This document shows, piece by piece, positions 899 to 64,000 of a DNA stretch of 64,000 nucleotides (positions are counted from its first letter, which is position 1; the number at the start of each line of letters is the position of its first letter). The notes beneath the pieces are model-generated. The model saw only the letters and a program-made list of their open reading frames with translations. It ran no database searches and was not told the DNA's origin. The stretch comes from Octopus sinensis. Its lineage: Eukaryota. The DNA is taken from NCBI RefSeq assembly GCF_006345805.1, contig NC_043000.1, forward strand, positions 95,294,001 through 95,358,000, given 5' to 3'. A program made the position numbers and the translations under genes.

Positions 899-899
<1 letters not shown>

Positions 900-1516
900 A
901 GATTGTCAGGAAGGCCGAGGGTGTCTTGGCATCACTCAGCAGGTCTTTTGTTAGCCGCTCTCCAGCCATCTATTTAAAACTGTATACAGCTATGGTACGA
1001 CCACACTTGGAATTCGCATCATCAGTTTGGAACCCCTATCTTGCACAGAACATTGACCTCCTGGAATCTGTCCAGAGACGTGCAACCAAACGCATACCCT
1101 CCATCAGACACCTACCATATTCTGAGCGCCTTGTTTCCCTGGGCATGGATTCACTGAAGCTCCGGCGTTTGGCGACGGACTTGGTAAACACCCACAAAGT
1201 TATCAACCACCTCACCAACAACAACACTGAACACCTTTTTGATCTCCATGTGTCTAACACACGTGGACATGCCTACAAAGTCAGAAAACAATACAGCTCC
1301 CATGACTTTCGGAAACATTTTTTCACGCTCAGAGTTGCTGAAGCATGGAATAAACTGCCTGCGTCAGTTGTTGACTGCCATGACACTGCATCTTTTAAGG
1401 CCCTCATGCTTTCCGAAATCCGCCGAAACTTCACCTGATTATATATACACTTTAGATGAGTTGTAGTGCACCTGAGCACTGTACACAATTATTATTATTA
1501 TTATTATTATTATTAT
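899..1516 (+). mobile_element. 5'-truncated CR1/L2-type LINE (RT C-terminus, short 3' UTR, (ATT)n tail)
   Basis: ORF 926-1438 contains LYTAMVRPHLEFASSVWNPY, LESVQRRATK, YSERL, TRGH and FFTLRVAEAWNKLP. (ATT)n tail at about 1488-1516. Reading frame is uninterrupted, so probably young. Confidence 0.9.
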
Positions 1517-1997: not shown

Positions 1998-2265
1998 CTC
2001 TCTCTCTCTCCTCTCTCTTCCTTTCTCTTTCAACACTACCTTTGTTGAAATGCTTTCATTAAAAATAAGTGATAAGTTTTTGGATACTCAGACAATACTA
2101 ATAGAATTTTTTTAATTATATCTAACATATCAGTATTACTTAGGGATTTTTCATTTCAAGCAACGTTTCTACACGAAATCTGTCGGCTCCAATATAAACG
2201 AAAAAGTGAATAATAAATTCACTAAAATTAGAATCAGCTATCGGGTTGAATAAAAACTTGGTGCA

Positions 2266-2309
2266 CCATCAACCTGACGAGACTCAAGAAAATCGAAATG
2301 CATCTGATG
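2266..2309 (+). ncRNA. Degenerate hammerhead ribozyme-like motif in a probable Penelope remnant
   Basis: catca..CTGACGA(2274-2280) gact-caagaa-aatc GAAA(2295-2298) tgca TC tgatg; palindromic ATGCAT stem III; stem I offset by 2 nt. Confidence 0.45.
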
Positions 2310-2540
2310 TTCTCGTTAACCACTGCAGGAACAATTTTCATTCTCTTTCCAACCACCCCGATACATGTGTTTTCAACACACCACGCCAGTAAGAGATTTT
2401 CTCTCGGACGAAAACTACAGTATCTTGCCTGTTTATACATTGACTATGATACCTAGATGAGCATTTTAATACAATACTGTTTCAATTGCGTACACCTTTA
2501 TACGAGACATATATAGACACACACACTCGCGCATACATAC

Positions 2541-2614
<74 letters not shown>

Positions 2615-2617
<3 letters not shown>

Positions 2618-2845
2618 GAGGCGCAATGGCCCAGTGGTTAGGGCAGCGGTTTCGATTCCCAGACCGGGCGTTGTGTGTGATTATTGAGCGAAAACACCTA
2701 AAGCTCCACAAGGCTCAGGCAGTGGGTGGTGGTGACGCCTGCGATGGACTGGCGTCCCGTCCAGTAAGGGGGAACATATACGTCACAGAAACCGGGAAAC
2801 CGGGCCCATGAGCCTGGCTAGGCTTGAAAAGGGCTCATAAAAAAA
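2615..2845 (+). mobile_element. Chimeric tRNA-derived SINE (family E head, family F tail)
   Basis: Head gtggaggcgcaatggcccagtgg...gaaaacacctaaagctccac matches 40488. Tail cctgcgatggactggcgtcccgtccag...agaaaccggg...catgagcctgg matches 60315-60410. Confidence 0.8.
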
Positions 2846-2891
2846 TGTATGTATGTATGTATGTATGTATGTATGTATGCATATGTATGTA

Positions 2892-4674
2892 CAGCTGTGG
2901 AAAAAGTTTACCACCACCCATGTTTTCGAATGTTTTCCAGAAGTGAAAGACCAAGTGTTTTTGCTTCACATCTGACGAGAACGCTTAAACGTTTGGTTGC
3001 CGTAGATCCTCGGCTAACATCTACTGGTATCCTTGTTATTACTGCTAACGATAAAACTTGCTTAATGTTGTTTAAATAGACAACAGTTTTATCCTTGATC
3101 TTGTTTACAAATTTTGCAGATAATGTTAATAATGTGCGGTATTCAGGTTAATGCTGTGTTTTGTCTGGTAATTACCTGCTTTCATGTAAATTGCATTCTT
3201 GTCCCAGTTGTATTTGTAAACTTTTCTTTCGTATCTATTGCTAGTTTTTAACAATTTTGTAGCAGAGCGTTGCACGAATAGCTTGTTCGCTTTTTTTTTT
3301 TCTTTTTTGCCTGTACATTTTACATTTGTGCAACTTTTACAAAGAATACTGTGGTCATTGCATTGTACAAGTACAGTACATGCACGTGAGCTTTTCTATG
3401 CTATACAGCAATTTTATCTCTTTTTTTGTATTTTGTTCATTAATAGTTTAACCCTTTTGCATACATTTATTACCTTTTTACACCATGCTTTTTGCACCCT
3501 ACTTTTTGCACCATGCTTTTAATTTGCAGAATGGAACGGAATATTGAATTTTCTTGTGAAGTCCGTGTGCAAATCATTGCTCTTCATAATGAAAGACTAT
3601 CATGCCAAGCCATAACCTCTCGACTAAAATGTCACTATACTACAGTTGTTAGAACAATTAAAAGGCATGCTGAACAAGAAAACTTTGAACGCAGATCCAG
3701 AAATGGAAGACCAAGTGTTTTTACTTCACATCCTACGAGAACGGTTAAACGTTTGGTTGCCGTAGATCCTCGGCTAGCATCTGCTGTTATCCGAAAATAT
3801 CTGCCTCCGTGCAACTACATCACAGATAATAAGTTGCCAACTACCAGAACAATTCGGAATTTGTTGCGTAGGAAACTGAAACAGCGTGCCAGACGGCCTG
3901 TCCGAAAACCACTATTGAATGAATGCAAGTACTGCAAGTGGACAGTTGATCAATGGAAGCAAGTTTTCTTTTCAGATGAGTGCACATTCCAGCATAGACC
4001 AGTTAACTGTCGTTTTGTACCCAAATACACCGTCTCTATGATGTAGCAGCTCGCCAGCATAATGGTTTGGGGTTGTTTTAGCTGATATGGACGTGGAAGA
4101 TTTTAATTTCTACCTAAGGGAAGAACTGTCAATTCCAAGGTCTATCAAGAAATCATGGAAGAAAAATTGCTTCCATGTATGGAGAGTCACCAGACGACCA
4201 TTTTCCAGCAAGGTAATGCTCCTTGCCACTCCTCTAAAGCAATGAAAGCATTCTTCCTCGAGCAAACATCAGTGTTATGGAATAGCCCGACAAGAGTCCG
4301 GACATCAACCCCATTGAAAACCTTTGGTTGATTATGAAGAAGAAAGTTTCCTCTAAACATCCCAAAAACGTTGAAGAATTTAAGGCATCCATAAAGGAAG
4401 TGTTGGGCAAAGAAATTGACTAGAATGTTTGTCGTAGTATGGTACAGAGTCTGCCGACACGTCTGGAAGGAATTATACGAAACAAAGGCTACAGTTCCAG
4501 ATACTGACATATCTAGAATTTGTACTTGCAATAATGTTTTATGTGTCTTTCATTCATGGTACTAACTTTATATATGCAGAAATGTTTGATTTCGTGATAA
4601 AATGAAATGATTTGTCTTGTAGTAAGCGCTTTTGCTGAAAATTTAAGGTGGTGCTAAACTTGTTTCCACTGCTG
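2892..4674 (+). mobile_element. Full-length defective Tc1-like DNA transposon inserted in (TATG)n
   Basis: TIRs cagctgtggaaaaagtttaccaccacc (2892) and ggtggtgctaaacttgtttccactgctg (ends 4674), each flanked by TA. Confidence 0.9.
3531..4507 (+). pseudogene. Tc1-like DDE transposase pseudogene
   Basis: HTH region with GRP, WTVDQWKQVFFSDE, MVWGCF, FQQGNAPCH and SPDINPIENLW; internal stops and frameshifts. Confidence 0.9.
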
Positions 4675-6050: not shown

Positions 6051-6974
6051 TATGTTAAATGAAATAGCAGGTATGTATACGCATGCATGTATATATGTAT
6101 ATATACATATATAGGCATATGCGTGCGCAGGTGTGTGCGCGCATATACATATTTCCACACATACATACATACATACATACATACATACATACATACATAC
6201 GTATGTACATATGTAATGCCGAAAGCTTGATTTTTATTCTGTCACATAAAATCGTTTATAGCAAATCTCTTTATAAAGTAATATTCTTCGTTGGCTCTGA
6301 AAATAGTCTTCATTTGAGACATATATATGCGTAGGAGTGGCTGTGTGGTAAGTAGCTTGCTAACACACATGCGCAGTTAGTCAGTTGCTTCCTGTTCAGC
6401 CAGAGTGGACGCGAGTCAACCAGCTCCGTCCAATTAAAGAAAAAAGACCAAAAACGGAAAGTTGTCGAGGTAAGTGATTTTGTTTATTGTGAGTTGGGCA
6501 TAATTTATTGCGTGCCAATTATTATTTCAGTAAGTTGTGTCCAACTCTGAGACAATTTCGCCTGCTCTCGGCGGCTGCCGTTTTTGTGTTTATTGAAAAA
6601 AAAGCAGTGGAGGGGCGTATCCGTCTTCGATAAATTGAGTGAATATTTTTTTCACGTAATTGTGAGAATTGTATTGTGCTGTAAAGAACTTTTTGTGAAA
6701 ACTGCTATATAGGGGAGTATTTTGCCTCCGAAGTTTGAACAAGTTTTACCAATTTTACACCAAGTTTTGTGGAAGTTGTGCGTTCCTGGTTCAATTTAGG
6801 CCGGGAGTACCAAATGGCCAGAAGGTTTTTGCTGTGTTATTGACTTTCTTTTTAACTTTATTTGACTCTCTCCTTTTTCACTGTGACTTTCTTCGGATTT
6901 CCTTTTCCTCTCGTTTTTTAGTTTTATTCTGAATACATTTTAAAAAAAAAACAAAAAAAAAACAAAAAAAGAAC

Positions 6975-8213
6975 ATGGCAATGAAAAATAACAAACTTTT
7001 GGAATGGGAGATCATACCGCCTAAAAAGTGGTTAAAAGACCGTGAAGATAGGACGGTGGTGTTGAGAACCTACTCCAAGGCACTCGACACCATCGCCCTA
7101 TTCGAAAAGACGGCAATTGAAAAGGAGTTGGAAGAGTATTTGCCAACAATTAAATTCATTTCCAGGGGTGTCAAATATGCAACGGTGTGGTTGCTATTTG
7201 ACACCCCTGAAGAGGCTTGCAAATTTGCTAGCAAACCCCTGGAGGGTAAGGAAATCTTATTCCTGCCCACGTACAAAAAAAAGAAATTGATGAAAGCTTG
7301 AATTTGCGGTCTGCCACCCGACATAGAACCCGAGTGGATAGAGGAGACTATCCGCCGGGGTCTGGGTGGCAGCGAAACTAAGCTCCTTAATGTAAAAGTT
7401 CTTCCTGCGGCTGCTTGGGTTGGGTCAAAAGCAATTTTGACCCTGTGGACCCAATCAGCCAATCTGGTTCTTCCAGATTTTTTGAAAATGGCCGGGTGCA
7501 GGTACCCGGTGATGCTTGAGGGTCGCCCCCCTAAGTGTCATCGGTGCTTGGAGTCCGGCCACATAAAGAAGAACTGTCCCCGGGAACAAAATAGGATCCC
7601 GGAACAGTTAAGTAAAACCCCTCTAGAAGAGGGAGTGATAACGGCCGAGAAAGCAGAGGACTCCTCAAACAGAGGCCGAAAGAGGAAAGTGAGCAACAAT
7701 GGGTGCTCACCAAAGGATAATAGGGATGAGGAGAGGAAGGCGAATCTTCCAGCCACGGAGGAGACGCACCCTCCCTCAGTTGAAAAGGGAAAAAAAAAGA
7801 AAAAGAGGAAGAAAAACGGGACATTACCGACTGTCAGTGTAGCACCGGAATGTCCCGGAACTACGTCGGTTGGGGTTGTGCCACCGACAAGAGAAGGAAT
7901 ACTGTTGGCGGGAACTGTGCCGCCACCGAAAGAACTGAACGTATTGGTTCTCTTCTATAGAGGAGGAGAAATTGAAAAAGTGATGGAAGAGCATCACAAG
8001 GGAGCACCTTTAGCCTTCACACAGGACCCCGAATGGCCTCCGCAGGTAGCTGTGGAGGCCGTGGCGTTCGACGTGACGCTTGGGCTAAAGGAGCTCAATG
8101 AAGACTATAACTTGGTCCCGGGCGACGCTGACTCGGAACTTGATTACGTTCTGAGGGAGGCGTGGTTGATGGTGGAGGGCGCGGGCACAAGCGACTTCGA
8201 GGACGATATGTAA
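6975..8213 (+). pseudogene. Gag-like ORF1 with CCHC zinc knuckle, one in-frame TGA at 7299-7301
   Basis: ORFs 6975-7301 and 7437-8213 are in the same frame and the gap is open (KA*ICGLPPDIEPEWI). EGRPPKCHRCLESGHIKKNC fits CX2CX4HX4C. Basic KKKKKRKK patch and acidic tail. Confidence 0.85.
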
Positions 8214-13344: not shown

Positions 13345-13730
13345 TTCTTCTGACTCACTACGTTGAGTTCAAATGCCAGCGACTTTAGTTTTGCCTTTCA
13401 TCTCCCCGAGTTCGATAAAATAAAGTACCAGTCAAGTACTGAGATCAATAGTATTGAACTAACACCTCCTCCCCTCAAATTTGTGCTGAAATGAGAAACC
13501 ATTATTTAAAAGGCTGCGGACAATGCAGAATTGTTAGCGCTTTGGATAAAATGCATAGTGACAGTTCTTTTTGTCTTGAGTTCAAATTCTACCGAGGCCC
13601 CTCCGCCTTTTCTCCTTTTTCAGTCAATAAATTGAAATAGCCGTCAAGTACTAGAGTCGATGTAATCGACTTGCCCCCTCCAATTAAAAATTCCTGGGCC
13701 CGTACCAAAACTTAGAAAGAATTATTATTA

Positions 13731-16059: not shown

Positions 16060-17830
16060 TATATGTATATTAATATAAATACATGAAAGTACATGAAATT
16101 TGTTAAAAAAAGGGGGATCATGTATATACCTCCTGGCTGTTGAGATTATAACACCTCGTTGTAAACAATGTTCCTTGTTTTTCCTTGTGGAGCATATACA
16201 AAAAGGTTTCTTTTGGTTTCTACTCTTGAGCAGCCATCATACAGTTGCCTGTGCGAGAAGCAGGGCTCTTCCAAGAGAAGACCAGCTGCAGAGAGGGTTA
16301 GACCCTGAGATTTGTTAATGGACATGGCAAAGCTGACACGAAGGGGGAATTGTAGACTTCTGAATGTAAATGGAATTTCTGCTCCTGATGGAGTAAGAGG
16401 AAATCTTGGAATAAAGACGTCATCATCTTTTCCACATCTAGAAAGAATGATCGCCTCGATAACGTATGATATCATTTTCTTTATTACCAGTCGTGTTCCA
16501 TTGCAAAGTCTTGGTATTTCCAGATTGCGGAGTAGCATTACAGGAGTTCCAACTTTAAGTGGTAACATGTGTGGAGGTAGTCGAGGAGGCTCCAGTGAAT
16601 TGAGAAATTCAGGAGGATAGTTCACAACTTCATTTATATCTGGAATTGTATCAACAGACTTGTAAGTGTGCATAGTGCCGGGAAGAGAATGCATTAGCTG
16701 TTGATTAATTTTGTTAACAGCGACGTTTTTTGGAGCTAATATTGCTCTTTCGCACAGCCAATTGTGATTTTGGTAGTTTTGTGTGAAGTTGGGAAAGACT
16801 TTGTTTTTGAGGTCATCTACAGAATTAACAACAGAGGAAAATGACCACACTTCCATTTGTCCTGCAGCATCCAGAGGCATCTTGCCTTCACCAAGTGTCA
16901 AAATGTCCTGTGCAAACTTTGTGGACATTTTGTCGCCGTGTAGCTGAGCTCTCATGTTAGTGGTGAGACTAAAGACTGTAACATGATGCCAAATGGTAGA
17001 GGACTTTAGGCATGCTTGAACTTCATCAGCTCTAGTGCCTTTCGGAATGACAGGAAAAGTTTGCCTGAAATCACCTGACAACAGAAGCGTTACACCTCCC
17101 ATTGGAGCCTGACAGTCTCGGATGTCTTTCAGGGCTCTATCTAATGCTTCCAAAGCTCCCTTGTGAGCCATAGTGCACTCATCCCAGATAATTACTTAAC
17201 ACATTTTAAGTACTTGTCCCTGATATGAGCTTTTGTTGATGTTGCATGAAGGCATTTCGGATGCTGCTAAATTGAGAGGGAGTTTAAAAGTTGAGTGTGC
17301 TGTCCTGCCACCGGGTAACAAAGTAGCTGCAATGCCAGAGGAGGCTACAGCTACTGCAATGTCCTGATGCTACCTAACTTCTGCAAGGAGAAGCTTTGTA
17401 ATAAATGTTTTTCCTGTTCCTCCAGGAGCATCGAGGAAGAAGATTCGTCCCTCGCGTTGGCGTACACTGTTAAGAATAGTTCTGTAGGCCTGCAGCTGGT
17501 CCGGAAGTTATTTAGGCTCATTTTCAACAATGTACTTTGAAAGCGCTTGAGTGTCGTAGGTTGTTTCACGAATGACAGCAGGAGGAAGGCTATTTGACCC
17601 TGACCTGAATGCTTGTGGCAGGCCATACGTCGACAATTCATTTCCACCCAGTTTAGCAATTCTGTCTTCAATGTCAATGAGTGTTTTGTTATAGATTCCA
17701 TTGCTGATACCCTCCATGTCAGGATAGATCAGTTGAGCTTGGCGCTGAAGGGTCAATGTTTTTGAGATTCCGGTTCGAATGTAAGGCAGGTTTTAAAGTG
17801 TTCCCAACAGTTATTAGTTGTAGTGGTAGA
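15947..17830 (-). mobile_element. Helitron 3' portion derived from an autonomous element
   Basis: Minus-strand 3' end ctgggcaatgccgggtatctctgCTAG|T (CTAG at 15947-15950) with subterminal hairpin; PIF1-type helicase upstream. Confidence 0.9.
16146..17810 (-). pseudogene. Helitron PIF1-family (SF1) helicase pseudogene
   Basis: FFLDAPGGTGKTF (Walker A, about 17400-17440), AVASSGIAATLLPGGRTAHS, IIWDE, GDFRQ, LRNL..PRLCNGTRL, QFPLRVSFAMSINKSQG; TAA stop near 17195 and frameshifts. Confidence 0.92.
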
Positions 17831-45793: not shown

Positions 45794-48700
45794 GTTTGAA
45801 TTTTGCTTTGTATTTGTACTAGTTGACTCCAAGTCTCACCCAGAGACCGCAAGAGACAACAAGTTAGAAGTTCAAGTTGGTATTATGCCTAGGGTGTCAC
45901 ATATTTGGTTTTGCACATAGTATTGTTCTAGAGAATGTTTAAGAAAACATTAGTTTGTTTGAAAAATTGAGATTACAGTATTTTACGTGGGATATAGGCA
46001 GTTCCCATGAGCACTATCTTTTGAATTTCTGCCATTTTGGAGTTTCCTCGTATGAGCTAGGTAGGAATCAGCCCCTTTTGCTATCATTCCTAGGGCACCT
46101 ATGACAACAGGTTCCACATTTTGCCAATTTCTATTTCAAGATCTTTATATTTGCTAAATTTTTGGTAGGTCTTGACTGATACATTTATGTCGATTGGAAC
46201 AGTCATATCAATGAGGAGGCATGATTTTAGTCTGAAGTCTTTCAATATAATGTCTGGCCTATTCGCACCTATCTTCCTCTCAGTTTGAACGGTGAAGGTT
46301 CAGAGGAGTGAAATGTGATCATTTTCAAGCACTGGGGGTGGTTTGTGTTCCCACCAATTTTTATCATGGGACAGGTTCAAGTCTTTGCAAAATACCCAGT
46401 AAATATACTGTGCTGTTCTATCATGCCTGTTGAGATACTCTGTAGGCGCAAGAGGACTGCACATAGAGACATGATCAATGGTTTCATTTTGTTGTTTACA
46501 TACATGACGTAATCTCCGCTTGCGTCCATTTCAGGATGGGTGCACTATAGCAGACTACAGCAACAGTCCATATGTTGATGGCAGTCACAAGTTGAGTTTT
46601 GATTTCAAGAGATGTTTGAAGGGCTTCAAATATGCAGTGATGAAATTGTCTTTCATTTCTCTGTGCAAGATATTGTCCATCTCCAGAATCCCAAGGTACT
46701 TGTACCCACCATCATCCGAGTCTTCCATTCTCTCTCCGCTTGGCAATTCTAGGCCCCTACAGTCTGCTCTCTTCCCCTGTTTCAAAGTGAGCACCGCACA
46801 TTCGAGATACCGAATTCAATCCCTATATCTTTGCTGCACATCTGCACAGTCTCAACCAGCCTCTCCATTTCAGGCTCTGTTTTTGCGATCAGTTTTAAAT
46901 CATCCATGAAGAAAAGGTGATTGAGATGAGGTCCATTCTTTATCAGTTCATAGTGCGCGTTGACTTTGCGTAGAACTACAGAAAGTAGATTCAAGGCTAT
47001 AACAAATAACAAAGGTATTGTTACCTCGGCTAATTGCTGGCTGTTACAGAAAAGACGTGTTTTCCAACTAGGCATGTTGTTCTTAATCAGTGCACACACG
47101 TTCCTAGCTAATCCACTCACGTTGAGCTAATCCACGAATGCGGCAACATCCAGGCCATGCACAGGATTTCTTAGTACCGTTTAGTTCTTCATTACAACGT
47201 TGTCTATCACAAGGTGTTCCTTGGTACTATAGGATCTTTTTCGGCATCCCTTTTGTTCTACTGGAAGTATATTGTTTTCCGCAAGGAATGTATATATTTT
47301 CCCTGTGCGTATGCCTGTTAACACTTTCCATATGAGGTTAAGATAAGCAATAGGTCGGTAATGCCAACTTCATTGCCCTTTGACAAATCTTTCATCAACA
47401 ATATTGTCTTTCCCCTCTACAATCCCATCCGGGGCAATTGTCTGATTTACAAAGCAATTCGCTTGTGTATTGACCTAACCCAGTGGGGTCAGTAGCGTTG
47501 AATTTTGTCTAGTCCTGCTTTCCAGTTTGGCAGCTTTGATACCTGTGCAATGACATCTTCCGTTGTTATGCGCATATGATCCTGTCGTGGAGCCTCCGCG
47601 TGATGGAGTTCGGATCTCACGAAATGAATCCACTCAGCCCTGTGGTTGTGAGAAACGTCTTGTCACAAAATGTTATTCCATAATTGATGGGTTTTACTCT
47701 GCTTCTGGAGATATATTATCTTTTGTATCTCTTAAGCTCTTAAAAAAACTGCCTCTGGTTATTTGAGAATAACCCGTTTCACTGGAACTGCGATTTTGGA
47801 TTAGTGTAGTGTTGCACCTTTAATGTTTTTGCCCGCACACGTTGTCTTAGGGTTTCCATAACAGTTTTGAACCCTTTCTTTTCTATTTGGTATTTTGCAT
47901 CAAGATATCTCCTTGAATCTTTTTTAGCATTTTCCATTGTCCTTTAGCCATTCTTCTATGCGACTCAGATCTTTACGCAAAGTTTTAATATTGCTTTCAG
48001 TTCTCCACTTCAAGCATGGGTACCTCTGTCCATCTGCTTTCCTCTCTTTCTTTCCAACCACTTCACCTACTAAAATTGAAGTGGATCTGATCAAGTCCCT
48101 TGTTTCCGTTATATTTTTTGTCAGAATGTATTTCAGAATCTAACCAAATTTTTGGGTCACGCATTTCACATTGTTACGGTCGAAGCTTCTTAAATTCACC
48201 AGCTTGATCTCTGTTCTTGTAACTATTATATATTCTACTCTTATCTTGAGGTTTCTATATTCCTCAGTTATATCCTCTCGTAATACAGGGTTTTCTACAT
48301 TATATTGATTTGCCGGCCTCTATCTACTACAATTTCACCTTGCCTACGCATTTGCTGATCTTCACCTACATATTCTCCTCGAGTTTATCACCACTACATA
48401 TGCTTTTCCTGATTGTCTGAATTATGGCCTCATTAAGAAAGCTTCTATCCCGAATTATTTTTATCTGATTCATGAGCCCATTTTCTGTAATCTTGATGAC
48501 ACCCAGCTGGTTCCAAAAATGATTTTTTTTCCCGACAGCTTTACATCTGCCATTGTTCTTGTCTAGCAAGGCTTGTTCATGGCACTGGATTGCCTTTTTT
48601 TTTCTTCTTTGTGAGCACGTTGCATATTTTGACCAGTAAAAGAACTACGACTGGGTGAAGTCTGATCTCCCACTCCATTGCCCTCTGGGGGGGTCCCTGC

Positions 48701-55329: not shown

Positions 55330-55480
55330 GTTTTGGGATTTGGTTTGCAAGATACTTTATGTGAGTTCGGGTGTTGAAGCATATTCTGATGTGTCTGGGG
55401 AGAGTCATTTTCTTTTTGTGCCGTTGAGTGTGTTAAATTATAAGGCACAAAAAGAAAATTACTCTCTCCAGACACAACAA
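55330..55480 (+). mobile_element. Small fold-back made of the family C SINE tail
   Basis: gtgtctggggagagtcattttctttttgtgcc pairs with ggcacaaaaagaaaattactctctccagacac. Confidence 0.8.
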
Positions 55481-55504
55481 AATAATATATATATGTATAT
55501 ATAT

Positions 55505-56028
55505 ATACATGCATATATGGGTACAGGACGTCACCAGCAGTGCAAATAACATAAAATACGTAAACAAACGAGGGAAAAACGACTGAAATATGTGAACAAC
55601 GAGAAAAAATGGAAAACAGGTCAAGTAGACACTGATAAAATCCCTTCATCAGTTGTCGGCTGTCTATCTACTCCTCATTTCGAGCGTTCACTATTTTCCT
55701 CTCGTTCTGGTCTAACGATCTACCATGTTTGCTTTCGTTCAGTTTCATTATATGTCTCCACTGTCATTTTTTATTTTGGTTCCCAACTGTGACCCTCTAT
55801 AAATCCTTTATGGTGCAGCTGTCTTTGAAGACTTATATTGTCGCTGAATGCTCGAAATGAGGAGTAGATAGACTGCCGACAACTGATAAAAGGTTTTTCC
55901 TTTGTGTTTACTTGTCCTGTTTTCCATTTTTTCTCGTTCATGTATTTCACTCGTTTTTCCCTCGTTTGTTTACGTATCTCATGTTATTTGCACTGCTGGT
56001 GACGTCCTGCAGCCATATATGCATGTAT
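55505..56028. mobile_element. Fold-back element with about 185 bp arms in (TA)n, degenerate hammerhead at 55818-55876
   Basis: 55505-55690 is the reverse complement of 55845-56028; gctgtc-t-TTGAAGA...ctc GAAA...TA gac(t/a)gc. Confidence 0.85.
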
Positions 56029-56246: not shown

Positions 56247-57165
56247 TTATATACGTTCTCCCATCAATAAGTGTCCAGACTGTTGCCATATAATGAAGCT
56301 AAGGCACCTAGAGTGAAGCCACTTGGCACAGAATGTCCTTAAACTCTGTTGTACATGCGCATAGAGTTTCATGGTTCTAGCTCACTTGGACCTTTTACAG
56401 CAGTGCTTGGAAGGAAAGTTTCCCCTCACAGCTGCGCACACATCTGCTATGTTTTTCTCAGTTCTGCTGGTAGCAGGTCTCCCAGAACGTTCGTCAATAC
56501 CGACATTTTTTTTTGGGGGGGGGGCCAGTAGAGATCAAGGTCAGTCTTTGCCAAGTGGCTTCACTCTGCATACTTTAGATTCGTTACTATGGCAATAATT
56601 CAGATACTTATTGATCAGATGGTACAAAAACTATAACACGAGGACGAGGTAAGATACATTCATTCTAAGGAAGAGCCTATAAAGAACTTACTTCCCTAGT
56701 TCTGTTGTTTGGTGACGGATAATGCACAGCACGTGTGATTGGGAAGGAGATACGAATAAGAAAGTGACTACATATAGTGATGTTATATAACCGACAAGCT
56801 CAGAAAAACCTTCCAAGCACCGACAAACCACACGACTGCCATTACAAAAATCATCGCTAATACATTGATTTCGCTCCATTCAATGCTTGATGAATTTAAC
56901 ATGAAAATGAATGCAGCCCATAGTTATAAAAATATTATAACCTGGATTCAATAAACGGACAGGACGAGGTAATTGAGGTTTAATATGGAATAATTAAAAC
57001 CTTTACTGTAAGTTAACTAGCCACCTCTTAGTTTTACAAATCTGTTACTCTGACATTGTGATGAGCTTATCCCACTATATAGCTTTTTGGATTGGGTTAA
57101 CTGTACGTCCGATAACCTATCTGCATGTGTGTCTGTGTCTGTAAGTATGTGTCCATGTGTGTGTG

Positions 57166-57966: not shown

Positions 57967-58030
57967 ATATAATATATATACATATATATATATATATTAT
58001 ATATATATATATATATATACATACATATAT

Positions 58031-58088
<58 letters not shown>

Positions 58089-58095
58089 ATTATAT

Positions 58096-58555
58096 TATAT
58101 ATAAGGGCTTAGTAAAATAAATTACTTTGCCACATACTGAACTCATAGAAATAGCAGCTAAAGAAATTTCTTTCTCAGCTATTTCTAATACTTAAAGAAG
58201 ATCTCTCTCAGATAGTGTTTGCCTAAACTGACTCCAAAAGTATGGGGGAAAAAACATTAAAAAAATCAGTGCAAAGGTTATTTGAGAACGTACGTTTCTA
58301 GATTAGTCAATTCGACATTTCTTTCTTCAGCTCAGAATTCCTTGAATCGGATTTGGGAACACTGAAAGTCGGGAGCATACCCTTTCGGCTTCTAATCACC
58401 TCTGAATTCTAATGAGTTCAGTATGTGGCAAAGTAATTTATTTTACTAAGCCCTTATATATAATGTAATATTTTGAATTCGCCTATAATGGTCCCTTAAC
58501 ATACTGAATACTTGGTGAATTGATTTAATAATTAATTAATTTTACCCTCAATTGT

Positions 58556-58560
<5 letters not shown>
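58096..58560 (-). mobile_element. Fold-back element in (TA)n with hammerhead in spacer
   Basis: Arms about 58096-58151 and 58406-58462 plus about 100 bp tail. Confidence 0.85.
58283..58334 (-). ncRNA. Minimal type I hammerhead ribozyme candidate
   Basis: TGAG CTGAAGA aagaaatgtc-gaatt-gactaatcta GAAA CGTACG TT CTCA; intact core, palindromic stem III, 4 bp stem I, imperfect stem II. Confidence 0.7.
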
Positions 58561-58594
<34 letters not shown>

Positions 58595-58597
<3 letters not shown>

Positions 58598-59272
58598 TGT
58601 AGGTATCAGTTAGAGGGGTTTAATACCTCCTAGGGATAATTAAATCCAGAGTCGCTCCTGGCTATTAGCTGGGTATGTATAGTCTTTTGTAACGTTGTAC
58701 GGTAGCAGGTGGTTCGGTTGGTAAAATGAAGTTTAGGTTATATAGGAGAAGAAAATGGATATAATAACAATGAGAAACTCGTGGTTTTCGTTGGAATGTC
58801 TTTAATTAGATAGATAACAAAGAAGGAAGAAGCAGAGATGACGATAGCATTTACGATCGTTTCAATTTACTCCCCTTCACCTACACCACCGGTGTTAACT
58901 AATCGTAAAACTGAAAACACACGTGCGAAGAAAATGTGCTTAATTAAACTAGGAAACCTGCACCTGAATAATACTCACCCCCACCCTAATTTCCCAACGA
59001 AACTAACCAATCTACCACAAGCAAACCTCTACCCAGCTTATTTACCAGTGCAATGACAAAACTTTAACGTAAGAATTACCACTTTGTTTACATTACCATC
59101 ACATATTATCAATTATTTTCGCATCCTAACCGATGCATCTGTCTATATTCGCATTCTGAATAGATTTACTTACTCCAGTAAATCGAAACGATCGTAAATG
59201 CTACCGATCGTAAAGACATACCAGCGAAAACCACGAATCTCCTATTGTTTAAATATTTATTTTCTTATATAT
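58595..59272 (+). mobile_element. Fold-back element in (TA)n with hammerhead
   Basis: 58745-58870 is the gapped reverse complement of 59177-59272. Confidence 0.8.
59151..59201 (+). ncRNA. Type I hammerhead ribozyme fold with a G8>U core change
   Basis: GCATT CTGAATA GATTTACT-tactcc-AGTAAATC GAAA CGATCG TA AATGC; perfect 5 bp stem I and 8 bp stem II. Confidence 0.8.
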
Positions 59273-59325
59273 ATATAATATATATATATATTATATATAT
59301 ATATATACTATATATATATATATAT

Positions 59326-59432
<107 letters not shown>

Positions 59433-59482
59433 TATAAATATACCTACCATAATATATGGGGGATGCTTGTGTGTGTGTGAAT

Positions 59483-59895
59483 GCGCATGGCTCAGTGGTT
59501 AGAGCGTCCGGTTTACAGTTCGATTCCCGGACTGGGCTGTGCATTGTGTTCTTGAGCAATACACTTTATTTCACATTCCTCCAGTTCACTCAGCTACAGA
59601 AATGAGTTACGATGTCACCGATTCCAGGCTGTAGCGACCTCTGCATTTTCCTTGGATAACATCGGTGGCGTGGAGAGAGGGGAGGCTGGTATGCATGGGC
59701 TACTGCTGGTTTACCATAAACAACCTTGCCCGGACTTGTGTCTCGGTGGGGGAAGGAACTTTCTTGGTGCAATCCCATGGTCATTCGTGACCGAAGTGGG
59801 TGGGGTCTCTATACAAGCAAATAAGTGGAAACCGAACCAGTGAGTGTGTTAAATAAATAATAAGGCACTAAAAGAAAATTACTCATCTCAGACAG
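59483..59895 (+). mobile_element. tRNA-derived SINE family C
   Basis: gcgcatggctcagtggttagagcg...ttcgattcccgg...ttcttgagcaa; tail aaggcactaaaagaaaattactc. Confidence 0.85.
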
Positions 59896-60166
59896 AATAT
59901 ATATATATATATATATATATAAATGCATGTATGTATATTTGTATGTATATACATAGTGAACATGATGACTCTTACGCAAGAATACATGAGTATAAATTAA
60001 GAGTTGAAACGGTCCTAAATCTTAAAAACCAACTTCTAATCAGAGTAGATACCCTAGATCCAAGAGAGATAGCGCTCTCCCTCTCTCTCTCTCACTCACT
60101 CACTCGCTCCTCTTTCTCTCCGCCTCTCTGTTAACACTCATATACTATATATATATATGTGTGTGT

Positions 60167-60412
60167 GGAGGCGCGTGGCTTAGTGGTTAGGGTGTCAGCA
60201 TCGTGATCGTAAGATTGTGGTTTCGATTCCTGGACCGGGCGACGCGTTATGTTCTTGAGCAAAACACTTCCTTTCACGTTGCTCCAGTCCACTCAACTGA
60301 CAAAAATGAGTAACGCTGCGATGGACTGCCGTCCCATCCAGCTGGGGAACACACACGCATAGAAACCGAGAAACGGACCCATGAGCCTGGGTAGGCTTTT
60401 AAAAGGGCGCAT
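60167..60412 (+). mobile_element. tRNA-derived SINE family F
   Basis: ggaggcgcgtggcttagtggttaggg...gtttcgattcctggaccggg...ctgcgatggactgccgtcccatccag. Confidence 0.85.
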
Positions 60413-60424
60413 TTATTTATTTTT

Positions 60425-60481
<57 letters not shown>

Positions 60482-60484
60482 TAT

Positions 60485-60885
60485 TGTTGTGTCTGGGGAG
60501 AGTCCTTTTCTTTTAGTGCCTTATTATTTAAGACACTAACGGTTCGGTTTCCACTCATTTACTTGTATAAAGACCCCACCCACTTCGGTCACGAATGATC
60601 ATGAGATTGCACCAAGAAAGTTCCCCTCCGAGACAAGTCCGAGCGATGTTGTTTATGGAAGACCAGCAGTGGCCCATGTATAAAAGCCTCCCTTCACAAC
60701 GCCACCGATATTGTCCAAGGGAAAGACAAAGGCCGATACAGCCTGGAATCAGTGACGTCGTAACTCATTTCTATAGCTGAGTGAACTGGAGGAACATGAA
60801 ATCAAGTGTCTTGCTCAAGAACACAACATACAGCCTGGTCCGGGAACTGAATTCACTATCTCATGACTGAACCTAACGCTCTGAC
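60485..60885 (-). mobile_element. Family C SINE, inverted relative to the 59483 copy
   Basis: Reverse-complement match across body and tail. Confidence 0.85.
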
Positions 60886-60949
60886 ATGTAGATGGTTGGC
60901 GAGATTTTTCCTCCGTCTTCCTTTTTTCTTGGACTTTCCTCTGTCTCTT

Positions 60950-60984
60950 GTTTCTGAAGAAGAGCTTTACTCGAAACGTAAAAC
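60950..60984 (+). ncRNA. Minimal type I hammerhead ribozyme candidate (Penelope-type)
   Basis: GTTT CTGAAGA a GAG-cttta-CTC GAAA CG TA AAAC; predicted cleavage after GUA at 60980. Confidence 0.8.
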
Positions 60985-61115
60985 TTCCATTCTTTCCTTC
61001 CCTGAGCGGCTGCTAGTACTTTGCATGTACCACGTCCTCGCATTTTGGTTTTTCTTGTGTTTTTTATTCGTTTTATTGATTTAACTATATATATATTATA
61101 TATATATATATATAG

Positions 61116-61146
<31 letters not shown>

Positions 61147-61763
61147 GCATGTACGTATTTGTTTCTGTAGTTACATATTCTATGGTTGAATATTTTAAAC
61201 ATTAGACAAAGTGGAAAACTCACTGGAACGTAGGATAGACTGCCGTGCGGTAGTTACTCTGGATTTTTAGACTCTGAATTCGAATTTCGCCGAGGCGCTT
61301 TTCATCCTTTCGTGAATGAAAAATAAAATACCACTTCAATATTAGTATTGATTCTTCTTCCTATTTTTTTTTTTTTTTTTTGCTGTGTATTTTATTTTTA
61401 ATTTAAAGGTCAACCCTTGTCTCACGCTGCTTTGTGCGAAGAATAACATTAAGAATACAGGAGTTTGTGGAATACTCAGCCACTTGAACGTTAGTTTCAT
61501 GAGTTTTCGGAAATTCAGATGGTCGAGACACTGAATGCTGATTTCGAAACCCACAGATGAACCACTATCATATGAAATATTTTAAATATTTTAAAATATT
61601 CGACTTTTTGAAGAATAGGCTGTTAAATATTCTAAATACTTCTTGAAATACGTATTTGATGTACAAATATCTATTTGTACATCAAATATGTATTTGTACA
61701 TAAAATACGAATCTTCGAGTTTTTCATTCAATTTTTCTTATACGCGCCCCTATATTTCTTTCC

Positions 61764-61800
61764 TTCTTCTGATGAAAGACAAACGTTCGAAATATTAAGG
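61764..61800 (+). ncRNA. Degenerate hammerhead-like motif
   Basis: ctt CTGATGA aagac-aaac-gttc GAAA tat TA agg; weak stems. Confidence 0.45.
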
Positions 61801-61994
61801 CACATTTTCTCTCCAATAAATCGCTACCCCAATACCCTATTTGGGAAACTTTATTTTTCGTGTGTTACCTTTTCGATTGTTCATTTATATTTGTGTTTTA
61901 AGTTTGTCTGCATATAAGTTTATACAAATATGTCTTCGTATTTCTCTTATGTATGTATGTATGTATGTATGTATGTATGTATGTATGTATGTAT

Positions 61995-62083
<89 letters not shown>

Positions 62084-62504
62084 TTTATATATTTATATAT
62101 ACATATCTTTTTTGTGGTCAAAAAATTTATGCGGTAAGACCTGCAAAAATTTCATCACAACAAAACATTTATATATGACTGCTGATGTGGAAGCCCAACG
62201 GTCAAAAAAACTTTAGCACAAAAGGTTATAAAGATGTGACCAGTATATCAGGAGATCAGGAGCCACGCTGACGCCAAGCCTACTTCAGTTTTTGAAAATG
62301 TCTATAAATATTCAATATAGATTTTGGAACTGTATCGTTCCAAACTGACAGCAAGAAACTGGTACAAGATTATGAAAATTCTGTAATAAAATGATATTTA
62401 AAAAATACAAAACTGGAGCATAATCGCGAGTTTAATGAAACGTATAAAAGAAAAGCTGTTCCCCATAGATTCATAGAAGCCAGACAGACGGACAGACCCA
62501 GTTA

Positions 62505-62649
62505 CACAGAAGAACGGACGGACGGAAGGATGGATGGATGGAAGGACGGGTGGACGGACAGACGGTTGAACGGATGGACGGAAGGACGAACGGACGTACG
62601 GATGGATTGATTGATGGATTGAAAGGTGGATTGATGGATAGATGAATAA

Positions 62650-62731
<82 letters not shown>

Positions 62732-62750
62732 TTGGTGACAATGACAACGG

Positions 62751-62802
<52 letters not shown>
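62505..62802. repeat. Compound microsatellite (GGAC/GGAT)n-(AGAT)n-(GAT)n
   Basis: Direct reading. Confidence 0.9.
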
Positions 62803-62803
<1 letters not shown>

Positions 62804-63054
62804 CAAGAAGGAACACTAAGCAATATGAAATATAATATCGAATATTCAATGTGTTGTATTGTCTCTCGAGTAATCTAATAAAAATATTATTACCAGGCTG
62901 CTGCAGTGTTATTCCAGTATTCCAATAATTCCATACATTAAAATTATTCTAATTTGGCAACTGTTATTGGGGAATTAAAAATATTGACAGAACATCATTC
63001 TAATTATTTTTTAATTCCCACATGTTAGGTTTTTTTATATTAGAAGGCTAAGAA

Positions 63055-64000
63055 GGTTAGCTGAAACGTTCATAGACTGAGCGAGATATTCTCATGAAGT
63101 TTGTTTTTCAACATAGTCCCCACCACGCCTGAGGTCCACACATTTCTTCTATCGGTGTTGCAGTGCTTTCATCCTGTGACTCAAAAACATCGTCAACAAC
63201 AGATATGACGTCATCATATCCGCAACACAAGTCCCCAGCTACGTATTTGCTCATGTTGAGAAGCAGATGATAGTCTGATGGGACCAAATCTGAAGAATAG
63301 GGACAGTGATCGAAGTGTTCAAAGCCATCTCACGCACATCAGCCACTGAAACCAACGACTTATGTGCTGAAGCTTTGTCCTGATGAAACAAAACCCCTTT
63401 CATTAATTTTCCTGGGTGTTTGGTCTTGACGGTCTTTTGTAATTGCCTCAGCAAGCTAACATAGTACTCTCCTTTGATAGTATGGCCATTTTAAAGATAT
63501 TGATAAACACTATGTCTTTTACATCCCAAAAAAGTGAGGCCATTACCTTCCCTGTAGATGAAACAACATTGGCCTTTTTTAGAGTAGGTAAGGAGGACGT
63601 ATTTCCACTGCATGAATTGTCTCTTTGTCTCTGGTTCAAATTGATGAACCCAACACTCATATTGGCTTAGGAAACGTTCAAGAAGACCAGCTGGATCTAC
63701 CTGAAACAATGTCAGATTTTCTCATGGAGTGATGAGCCTGGTATCAAAAGACGTGGCACCCATCGAGCAGAAAAAACCATCGTCCCGCCAAGTTCATTAA
63801 GCAATATATTCTCAACTCTCTCACGGTGTATGCTAATAGTAGCGGCTTTTTGATTTATAGTCAGTAACCTGCCATCCATCACCATGTGGTGAACACGATC
63901 AATGTTTTTTCTCGGGGATGACAATTGCAGGACGTTCACATTTTGGGTAATCTCTAGGACTCTCCCTTCCCCTCCTAAATGAGAGCTGCCCACTTTTGCA
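63055..64000 (-). pseudogene. Mariner transposase pseudogene running off the window end
   Basis: ARWVPRLL, ECWVHQFEPETKRQFMQWK, GKVMASLFWD, VLFHQDKASAH and YSSDLVPSDY; frameshifted. Confidence 0.92.

What the first reader, a model, noticed from the sequence alone, without database searches (positions are those of the whole stretch)
60950..60984. Intact 35 nt minimal hammerhead ribozyme
All core nucleotides are present (CUGAAGA, GAAA, GUA), with stem I GUUU/AAAC, stem II GAG/CUC and a stem III reduced to the palindrome ACGU. This form is known from Penelope elements, where cleavage is thought to need dimerisation. It sits in a roughly 200 bp pyrimidine-rich unit (60890-61085) ending in (TA)n.
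Basis: partly seen in the sequence, partly recalled or inferred. Interest (0 to 1): 0.7.

Follow-up and report, generated by a model that had tools for sequence, protein, structure and literature searches.

The report
Decayed solo Penelope-type minimal hammerhead
This is a real but ordinary self-cutting RNA motif of a known kind, in one worn, lone copy of a very abundant animal repeat that likely derives from a Penelope-type jumping gene, and this copy probably no longer cuts.

Summary
The motif is at 60950-60984 as described and is not chance: it is the only descriptor match in the window, against 2 of 150 resampled windows. It lies in one copy (60884-61085) of a repeat with over 3,000 matching contigs in each of two runs, roughly 10^4 copies. 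The same core occurs in 113 metagenome loci, where stem I covaries; 16 of them lie just downstream of a PLE thumb/GIY-YIG fragment. 'Intact' is overstated. About 97% of family depth has G at 60969 (4-bp stem II); this copy has a C·A mismatch and stem II is predicted unfolded. It is about 7% diverged from the majority and has no partner ribozyme or PLE reading frame in the window. The family's core CpGs decay like flanking CpGs. No reading frame was linked to this family itself, so a non-autonomous mini-element remains possible. One oddity: a predicted inhibitory helix (GUUUC:GAAAC), absent in 61 relatives. The scan noted this class before on other DNA (791 notes, at least 42 genomes). Verdict: known kind, low interest.

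The parts
60884..61085 (+). One copy of a high-copy, pyrimidine-rich interspersed repeat (likely PLE pseudo-LTR derived); lacks at least about 16-20 nt that other copies carry at the 5' end
   Evidence: summed depth is 35-42 over 60860-60875, 2,198-3,325 from 60884 and 374,000-436,000 over the motif; loose ends before 60884, 60895 and 60896 continue with a shared family sequence
60950..60953 (+). Stem I 5' strand GUUU; can also pair, with C3, to the core GAAAC (predicted inactive helix)
   Evidence: Sequence; p(C3:G12) 0.95 for this copy and 0.91 with the majority base
60954..60960 (+). Catalytic box C3-A9 (CUGAAGA)
60961..60961 (+). Extra unpaired A between A9 and G10.1, a hallmark of PLE minimal hammerheads
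   Evidence: Published consensus CUGANGAH (PMC4209133, Discussion and Fig. S3)
60962..60972 (+). Stem II and loop: 3 bp plus a C·A mismatch (60965·60969) in this copy; 4 bp with a 3-nt loop in the family majority
   Evidence: G at 60969 in 97.4% (X1) and 96.9% (X2) of depth; hairpin +0.1 versus -2.5 kcal/mol
60973..60976 (+). Catalytic box G12-A13-A14-A15.1
60976..60979 (+). Palindrome ACGU (A15.1 to U16.1); would form a shared 4-bp helix III in a dimer
   Evidence: dimer model from PMC4209133
60980..60980 (+). A17 of the GUA triplet; predicted cut on its 3' side
   Evidence: GUA is a natural cleavage triplet (PMC1636495 passages); U here in 10-11% of family depth
60981..60984 (+). Stem I 3' strand AAAC
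   Evidence: stem I covaries in related motifs
61086..61146 (.). (TA)n microsatellite, likely the insertion target
   Evidence: (TA)n preference of PLE clades in PMC8557442 passages
60460..60885 (-). Neighbouring tRNA-derived SINE-like repeat pointing away from the motif; lacks about 19 nt of its head and shares a 2-nt overlap (AC) with the repeat start
   Evidence: (83.8% over 401 nt to the inverted copy at 59524-59921), tRNA-like head of that copy

Best explanation
The motif is a PLE-type minimal type I hammerhead inside one lone, mutated copy of a repeat family of roughly 10^4 copies, which likely derives from the pseudo-LTR of a Penelope-like (probably Neptune-type) retrotransposon, and this copy is likely inactive. 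Inferred mechanism: in the source element two motifs on one RNA, or on two RNAs, pair through ACGU and swap stem I strands to form a double hammerhead that cuts after A17, slowly and probably only with help from the element's protein. The element's reverse transcriptase and GIY-YIG endonuclease then pasted a short 3'-end piece into a (TA)n tract. The copy has since decayed. Shown: sequence anatomy, family abundance, the private mismatch, no partner in the window, and linkage of the same core to PLE fragments in other animals. Inferred: PLE origin of this particular family, cleavage, dimer use, targeting and inactivity.
For: Fit to the published consensus, including the extra nucleotide, G10.1-C11.1 and the palindrome. 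3,008 and 3,192 contigs laid at >=80% in runs X1 and X2, with summed depth about 10,300-10,800 times the single-copy flank (a rough figure, as the tool warns that depth is no copy number). The same core occurs in 113 loci. Stem I, beyond the one base fixed by the pattern, pairs at position 2 in 100 of 114 motifs (shuffled mean 53, max 67; C-G 65, G-C 30, A-U 4) and at position 3 in 80 of 114 (mean 47, max 60). Covariation score 0.157 versus 0.066, 0 of 500 shuffles. 16 of 113 loci hold a same-strand PLE thumb/endonuclease fragment ending 94-908 nt upstream, with a CX2-5CxxC linker read by eye. Decay: at least 11 majority differences in 151 nt; G12 is A in 7-8% and the palindrome CpG is changed in 9-10% of depth, versus 6-25% at six flanking CpG positions. 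Stem II probability 0.04 here versus 0.83 with the majority base; double-hammerhead energy -1.5 versus -6.7 kcal/mol. No second motif in the window (next model hit 12.4 bits, E 0.24). PLE hammerheads are inactive as monomers and weak as dimers or need the protein.
Against: No reading frame was linked to this family: the window has no PLE fragment (best E 0.056), and the 113 loci share only the core with it (1 weak BLAST hit). The Pfam GIY-YIG hit is below its cut-off (19 versus 22.6 bits, 1 of 3 ORFs). The covarying motifs come from few lineages and several loci are duplicates, so independent events are few; pairs 4-6 of stem I and a fifth stem II pair (9 of 20; 320 of 5,000 shuffles reach it) do not covary convincingly. 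Copies that match this one's 5' part appear to run into (TA)n only about 16-20 nt further upstream (33 contigs, agreement 0.59), which fits a short fixed-length element as well as random 5' truncation. Published motifs with a 3-bp stem II exist (Caenorhabditis rows), so inactivity is a prediction. Only 3 kb downstream of the motif is visible.
Confidence: 0.68

Rival explanations
1. The unit is a nearly full monomer (about 220-230 bp) of a non-autonomous, protein-free mini-element or retrozyme-like repeat that borrows PLE enzymes and inserts in (TA)n, or a fixed-length copy of the 5' end of the PLE transcript, rather than a randomly truncated autonomous PLE. The ribozyme class and the decay of this copy are unchanged.
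For: The X1 loose-end consensus before 60884 reaches a TA run after about 16 nt and starts with TAACTATATATAT, identical to 61082-61094, as a head-to-tail junction would (9 of the 13 letters are low complexity). No PLE frame in the window. Retrozymes of 150-450 bp derived from pLTRs are in print. Unchecked notes describe such families in this genome.
Against: No backward joint is listed among 3,008 and 3,192 contigs (table 5), though few contigs lay on the last 25 nt, so the test is weak. Described retrozymes mostly carry canonical rather than minimal motifs. A sequence look-up found no look-alike among earlier notes. Most family members diverge upstream of about 60905, as several pLTR subfamilies would.
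Confidence: 0.24
2. This copy is still an active ribozyme (in trans with other family transcripts, or in a read-through RNA) and has been kept by selection.
For: All core letters, the palindrome and a 4-bp stem I are unmutated; one contig at single-copy depth spans the left junction in each of X1 and X2.
Against: An unmutated core is expected by chance at this divergence (p about 0.37). Stem II is weakened and stem I probability is about 0 in the unit. No partner. The adjacent SINE points away, and no host exon was recognised among 43 ORFs of 110 aa or more (5 of them scanned with Pfam).
Confidence: 0.05
3. The match is chance and has no hammerhead ancestry.
For: No Rfam hammerhead match; fold z-score -0.5; the loose core pattern is common.
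Against: Strict descriptor in 2 of 150 resamples; family majority strengthens stem II; same core downstream of PLE fragments elsewhere.
Confidence: 0.03

Closest known systems
Minimal type I hammerheads (min-HHR) in pLTRs of metazoan Penelope-like elements (Cervera and de la Pena 2014, PMC4209133; seen: main text parts 1-2 of 4, supplement 2 part 2 of 3 and search passages; supplement file 1 could not be searched)
   Same: CUGANGAH box with the extra nucleotide, G10.1-C11.1, GAAA-CG-U-H palindrome, short stem I, U-rich flanks, mostly solitary copies in thousands. The Acropora row (GCU CUGACGAA GGGC UAAC GCUC, CGUC AGC) is close to the commonest family among my 113 loci; a Xenopus row also cuts after GUA.
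   Different: No cephalopod row in the part seen ('octopus' 0 hits in the searchable supplement). Stem II is short (4 bp, 3-nt loop; 3 bp in this copy), whereas many published ones have 5-8 bp. Stem I 5' strand GUUU gives a competing helix with the core.
Neptune-clade PLEs (Craig et al. 2021, PMC8557442; seen: 12 passages)
   Same: The related loci carry the CX2-5CxxC linker before a GIY-YIG domain, 3' of which the same core lies; the window copy ends in (TA)n.
   Different: The linker is shared with the Nematis clade, no tree was built, and no protein is tied to the window's own family.
Poseidon element PAc of Anolis (PMC11167929; seen: 12 passages)
   Same: pLTR hammerhead; offers the protein-assisted mechanism, and insertion did not need cleavage in vitro.
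   Different: Another clade and host; in PAc the reading frame starts in stem II, while no ATG lies there in this copy.
Small dimer-cleaving PLE hammerheads (Lunse, Weinberg and Breaker; not held; seen only as cited in the review PMC6765202, passages)
   Same: Short palindromic stem III, cleavage as dimers.
   Different: Could not check whether this family or organism is listed there.
Metazoan non-LTR retrozymes (PMC7229834, passages; bioRxiv 10.64898/2026.07.22.740005, part 1 of 5 and passages)
   Same: Short non-coding type I hammerhead repeat with solo monomers, related to pLTRs.
   Different: This copy is solitary and minimal, not canonical; no tandem array or circular RNA shown.

Membership tests
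PLE minimal hammerhead (min-HHR) | Core CUGANGA, GAAA and UH in type I order | tested here: met
PLE minimal hammerhead (min-HHR) | Unpaired nucleotide between A9 and G10.1, and G10.1-C11.1 pair | tested here: met
   A60961; G60962-C60972
PLE minimal hammerhead (min-HHR) | Palindromic 15.1-16.1 segment with no helix III in the monomer | tested here: met
   ACGU at 60976-60979
PLE minimal hammerhead (min-HHR) | Helices I and II can form | tested here: met
   4 bp and 3 bp are complementary, but predicted probabilities in this copy are about 0.001 and 0.04; family stem II has 4 bp
PLE minimal hammerhead (min-HHR) | Compensatory changes among genomic copies of the family | tested here: inconclusive
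   Copy sequences were not obtainable. Loose ends hint at A at 60950 and T at 60984, but unphased, and both are plain transitions. Covariation was shown only across other species' families.
PLE minimal hammerhead (min-HHR) | Self-cleavage as a dimer | not testable with these tools
   Needs an assay
Penelope-like element pLTR | Family members flank a reverse transcriptase/GIY-YIG reading frame | tested here: inconclusive
   None in the window; no genome held; met only for other families with the same core (16 of 113 loci)
Penelope-like element pLTR | High-copy dispersed, mostly truncated solitary copies | tested here: met
Neptune clade | CX2-5CxxC linker and placement in a reverse transcriptase tree | tested here: inconclusive
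   Linker seen by eye in L022, L006 and L063 only; no tree
Non-LTR retrozyme | Head-to-tail tandem units at the locus | tested here: not met
   One motif and one copy of the unit in the window; tandem arrays elsewhere are not excluded
Non-LTR retrozyme | Expressed circular RNA | not testable with these tools
   No listed run is on record as RNA
Rfam hammerhead families | Score at or above the gathering threshold | tested here: not met
   No hammerhead family among 36 matches at E<=10

The most novel reading that the evidence does not exclude
This family carries a built-in off switch. The stem I 5' strand GUUU has two identical AAAC partners: one inside the catalytic core (GAAAC, made first, with an extra C3-G12 pair) and one after the cut site. 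The RNA would fold first into an inactive helix and cut only when a partner RNA or the Penelope protein remodels it. The helix has predicted probability 0.91-0.95 here and is below 0.3 in all 61 related motifs. I did not search the literature for this switch specifically.
Probability: 0.12. Interest if true: 0.5.

Novelty: new member of a known kind. Interest (0 to 1): 0.15.

Why it matters
Little for this copy: PLE minimal hammerheads are known from thousands of copies in many animals. It adds a family of roughly 10^4 copies in a genome that unchecked scan notes call an octopus; my two searches (octopus or cephalopod with hammerhead ribozyme) found no paper whose listing describes such a family. 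If the competing helix is real, the family would be a simple test of why PLE hammerheads cut poorly alone and need protein.

Tried and rejected
No whole genome is held, so copies could not be collected. BLAST of the unit found no second full copy in the window, only short matches, the best non-poly-T one 26 nt at 56626-56651. Rfam: no hammerhead. The family-specific pattern found 0 matches in viral contigs and 0 in prokaryote genomes. No RNA holder listed; the two runs guessed to be RNA gave 11 and 21 family contigs, 0 and 1 of them at 95% or more; this is not used as evidence. The second read-laying on 49 nt gave no variant table. No place where many molecules begin or end was listed, and no loose-end cluster at the cut site was among the rows shown (391 and 25 rows hidden), so cut-defined copy ends were neither seen nor excluded. 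The second core-like site at 61769-61792 was rejected: no usable stem II, 9 bits, E 2.6; the other eight or so CUGANGA...GAAA sites fail too. The covariance-model E-value (6.5e-8) is circular for the core, because its training set was chosen with a pattern drawn from this motif; I used it only to look for a partner. The gap between double-hammerhead and minimum-energy dimer (18.2 here, 13.0 with the majority base) lies within the range of the 61 relatives (quartiles 11.9-22.9), so it does not single this copy out. Lunse et al. was not held. ARAGORN found no tRNA gene in 58000-64000.

Full report
Observation. The 35 nt at 60950-60984 read GTTT CTGAAGA A GAG CTTTA CTC GAAA CG T A AAAC. The loose core pattern is common (8 matches, shuffled mean 3.5). 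A strict type I descriptor (stem I and II of 3 bp or more, palindromic helix III, UH), written after seeing the motif, hits only this site in the window and 2 of 150 Markov resamples. Rfam gives no hammerhead among 36 matches, and the minimum-energy fold is not the hammerhead.

The unit. Laying four public runs on 60860-61088 at 80% likeness placed 3,008 contigs from X1 and 3,192 from X2. Summed depth is 35-42 left of 60876, jumps at 60884 and peaks over the motif at about 10,300-10,800 times the flank. The tool warns that this is no copy number, so I read it as an order of magnitude. The copy runs from 60884/60885 to 61085 and is followed by (TA)n. On the left it abuts a tRNA-derived SINE-like repeat on the minus strand that lacks about 19 nt of its head. 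Other copies continue 5' of 60884 with a shared sequence, so this copy is cut there. No second motif lies in the window (next hit 12.4 bits, E 0.24), and no PLE protein fragment (best E 0.056, at 13413-13571). Only 3 kb downstream is visible.

State of this copy. G replaces A at 60969 in 97.4% and 96.9% of depth, so the family stem II is GAGC/GCUC with a 3-nt loop, and this copy has a C·A mismatch. Computed with that one base changed, the hairpin goes from +0.1 to -2.5 kcal/mol and its probability in the 35-mer from 0.04 to 0.83; the double hammerhead goes from -1.5 to -6.7 kcal/mol. The window letter is the minority at 11 places in 151 nt, about 7%, a lower bound because 18 rows were hidden. 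At that rate 13 core letters stay unchanged with p about 0.37. Across the family G12 reads A in 7-8% of depth and the palindrome CpG is changed in 9-10%, within the 6-25% of six flanking CpG positions. This fits neutral decay after insertion. Against firm inactivity: published motifs include 3-bp stems II, GUA is a working triplet, and the dimer energy gap is within the range of relatives.

Relatives. A pattern for the core with the 4-bp stem II found 113 metagenome loci with 114 motifs. They share only the core with the window's unit (1 weak BLAST hit), so they are other families. Stem I, where the pattern fixed only one base, pairs at position 2 in 100 of 114 (shuffled mean 53, max 67) and at position 3 in 80 of 114 (mean 47, max 60); among 62 distinct motifs 50 and 33 (means 24 and 18); positions 4-6 show nothing convincing. 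On 71 distinct sequences the covariation score is 0.157 against 0.066, with 0 of 500 shuffles reaching it. These sequences come from few lineages, so the counts overstate independent events. Three reading frames that I picked by eye from 75 look like the thumb, CX2-5CxxC linker and GIY-YIG part of a PLE protein; Pfam supports one weakly (GIY-YIG, E 0.0018, below cut-off) and two not at all. They hit 16 of 113 loci, the three query loci included and about five pairs being duplicates, always with a same-strand piece ending 94-908 nt upstream of the motif; four also have an inverted piece. Only 46 of 114 motifs have 1 kb or more of upstream DNA.

Mechanism. From the literature: min-HHRs lie in pLTRs, show no monomer cleavage and weak dimer or trimer cleavage (PMC4209133); the Anolis PLE hammerhead cuts only with the element's protein, and insertion in vitro does not need the cut (PMC11167929 passages). 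By inference the source element of this family worked the same way: two motifs pair through ACGU, exchange stem I strands and cut after A17; short end pieces were pasted into (TA)n tracts; this lone copy has decayed and likely does nothing. I put 0.68 on this. The main rival (0.24) keeps the ribozyme class but makes the unit a nearly full non-autonomous monomer or a fixed-length transcript end. Its support is a noisy loose-end consensus (33 contigs, agreement 0.59) that reaches a TA run about 16 nt upstream of 60884 and begins with the 13 letters of 61082-61094, plus unchecked notes on such families in this genome. No backward joint was listed, but coverage of the 3' end was too thin for a real test.

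One oddity. GUUU plus C3 can pair with the core GAAAC, which would block catalysis. Predicted probability is 0.95 (this copy) and 0.91 (majority base) in the 35-mer, and below 0.3 in all 61 related motifs. Most family contigs extend through both stem I strands, so the feature appears family-wide. It is a nearest-neighbour prediction on a short fragment, a longer fragment folds differently, and it may be an accident of an AU-rich stem. I give the regulated-switch reading 0.12.

Comparison and verdict. The motif meets every sequence criterion of the published min-HHR consensus. Membership of the repeat in a PLE is likely but not shown for this family, and tandem retrozyme structure is not met at this locus. 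Searches for octopus or cephalopod with hammerhead ribozyme listed 4 and 2 papers; I read passages of only the relevant one (PMC8557442), which do not describe this family, and an Octopus vulgaris repeat paper has no 'ribozyme' in its main text. Lunse et al. and supplement file 1 of PMC4209133 could not be seen and may list it. The organism label rests on earlier notes and recall and was not tested. The scan has 791 earlier notes with these key words in at least 42 genomes. This is a new member of a known kind, in a worn copy: interest 0.15.

Noticed in passing
window 59481-59921 (+) and 60460-60885 (-): Two copies of a tRNA-derived SINE-like repeat in inverted orientation, 83.8% alike over 401 nt, with a related copy at about 60168-60400 between them; read-through would give long double-stranded RNA.
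   Followed up: partly
window 61769-61792: Second CUGAUGA...GAAA site with a possible AUAU palindrome and CUU/AAG stem, but no usable stem II; 9 bits with the model.
   Followed up: yes
window 61639-61702: Near-perfect AT-rich hairpin of about 60 nt (sub-threshold microRNA matches in Rfam).
   Followed up: no
window 55387-55507: Short fragments of the SINE-like repeat's tail in both orientations, forming a local inverted arrangement.
   Followed up: no
window 899-1438, 3447-4046, 6933-8213, 16146-17195, 46782-47126: Other transposon remains: a LINE-like tail (by eye, no Pfam hit), a Tc1-like helix-turn-helix frame, a zinc-knuckle gag-like frame, a Helitron-type PIF1 helicase (E 4.5e-30) and a reverse transcriptase fragment.
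   Followed up: partly
window 60942-60948: A subfamily lacking 7 nt just upstream of stem I makes up about 8-9% of depth in X1 and X2.
   Followed up: no
window 59923 and 61145: Similar ATGCATGTA sequences follow two (TA)n tracts 1.2 kb apart; the 9-mer occurs 13 times in the window, so probably microsatellite decay rather than a target duplication.
   Followed up: yes
L010, L016, L017, L018, L042, L058 and others, just upstream of the motif: Many related loci carry an inverted partial copy of the hammerhead directly 5' of the motif (L042 has two complete motifs back to back), the inverted 5'-truncated arrangement described for PLE insertions.
   Followed up: no
L112:288-335: The only locus with any BLAST likeness to the window unit (77% over 48 nt); it has an AUUU/AAAU stem I and a longer stem II.
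   Followed up: partly
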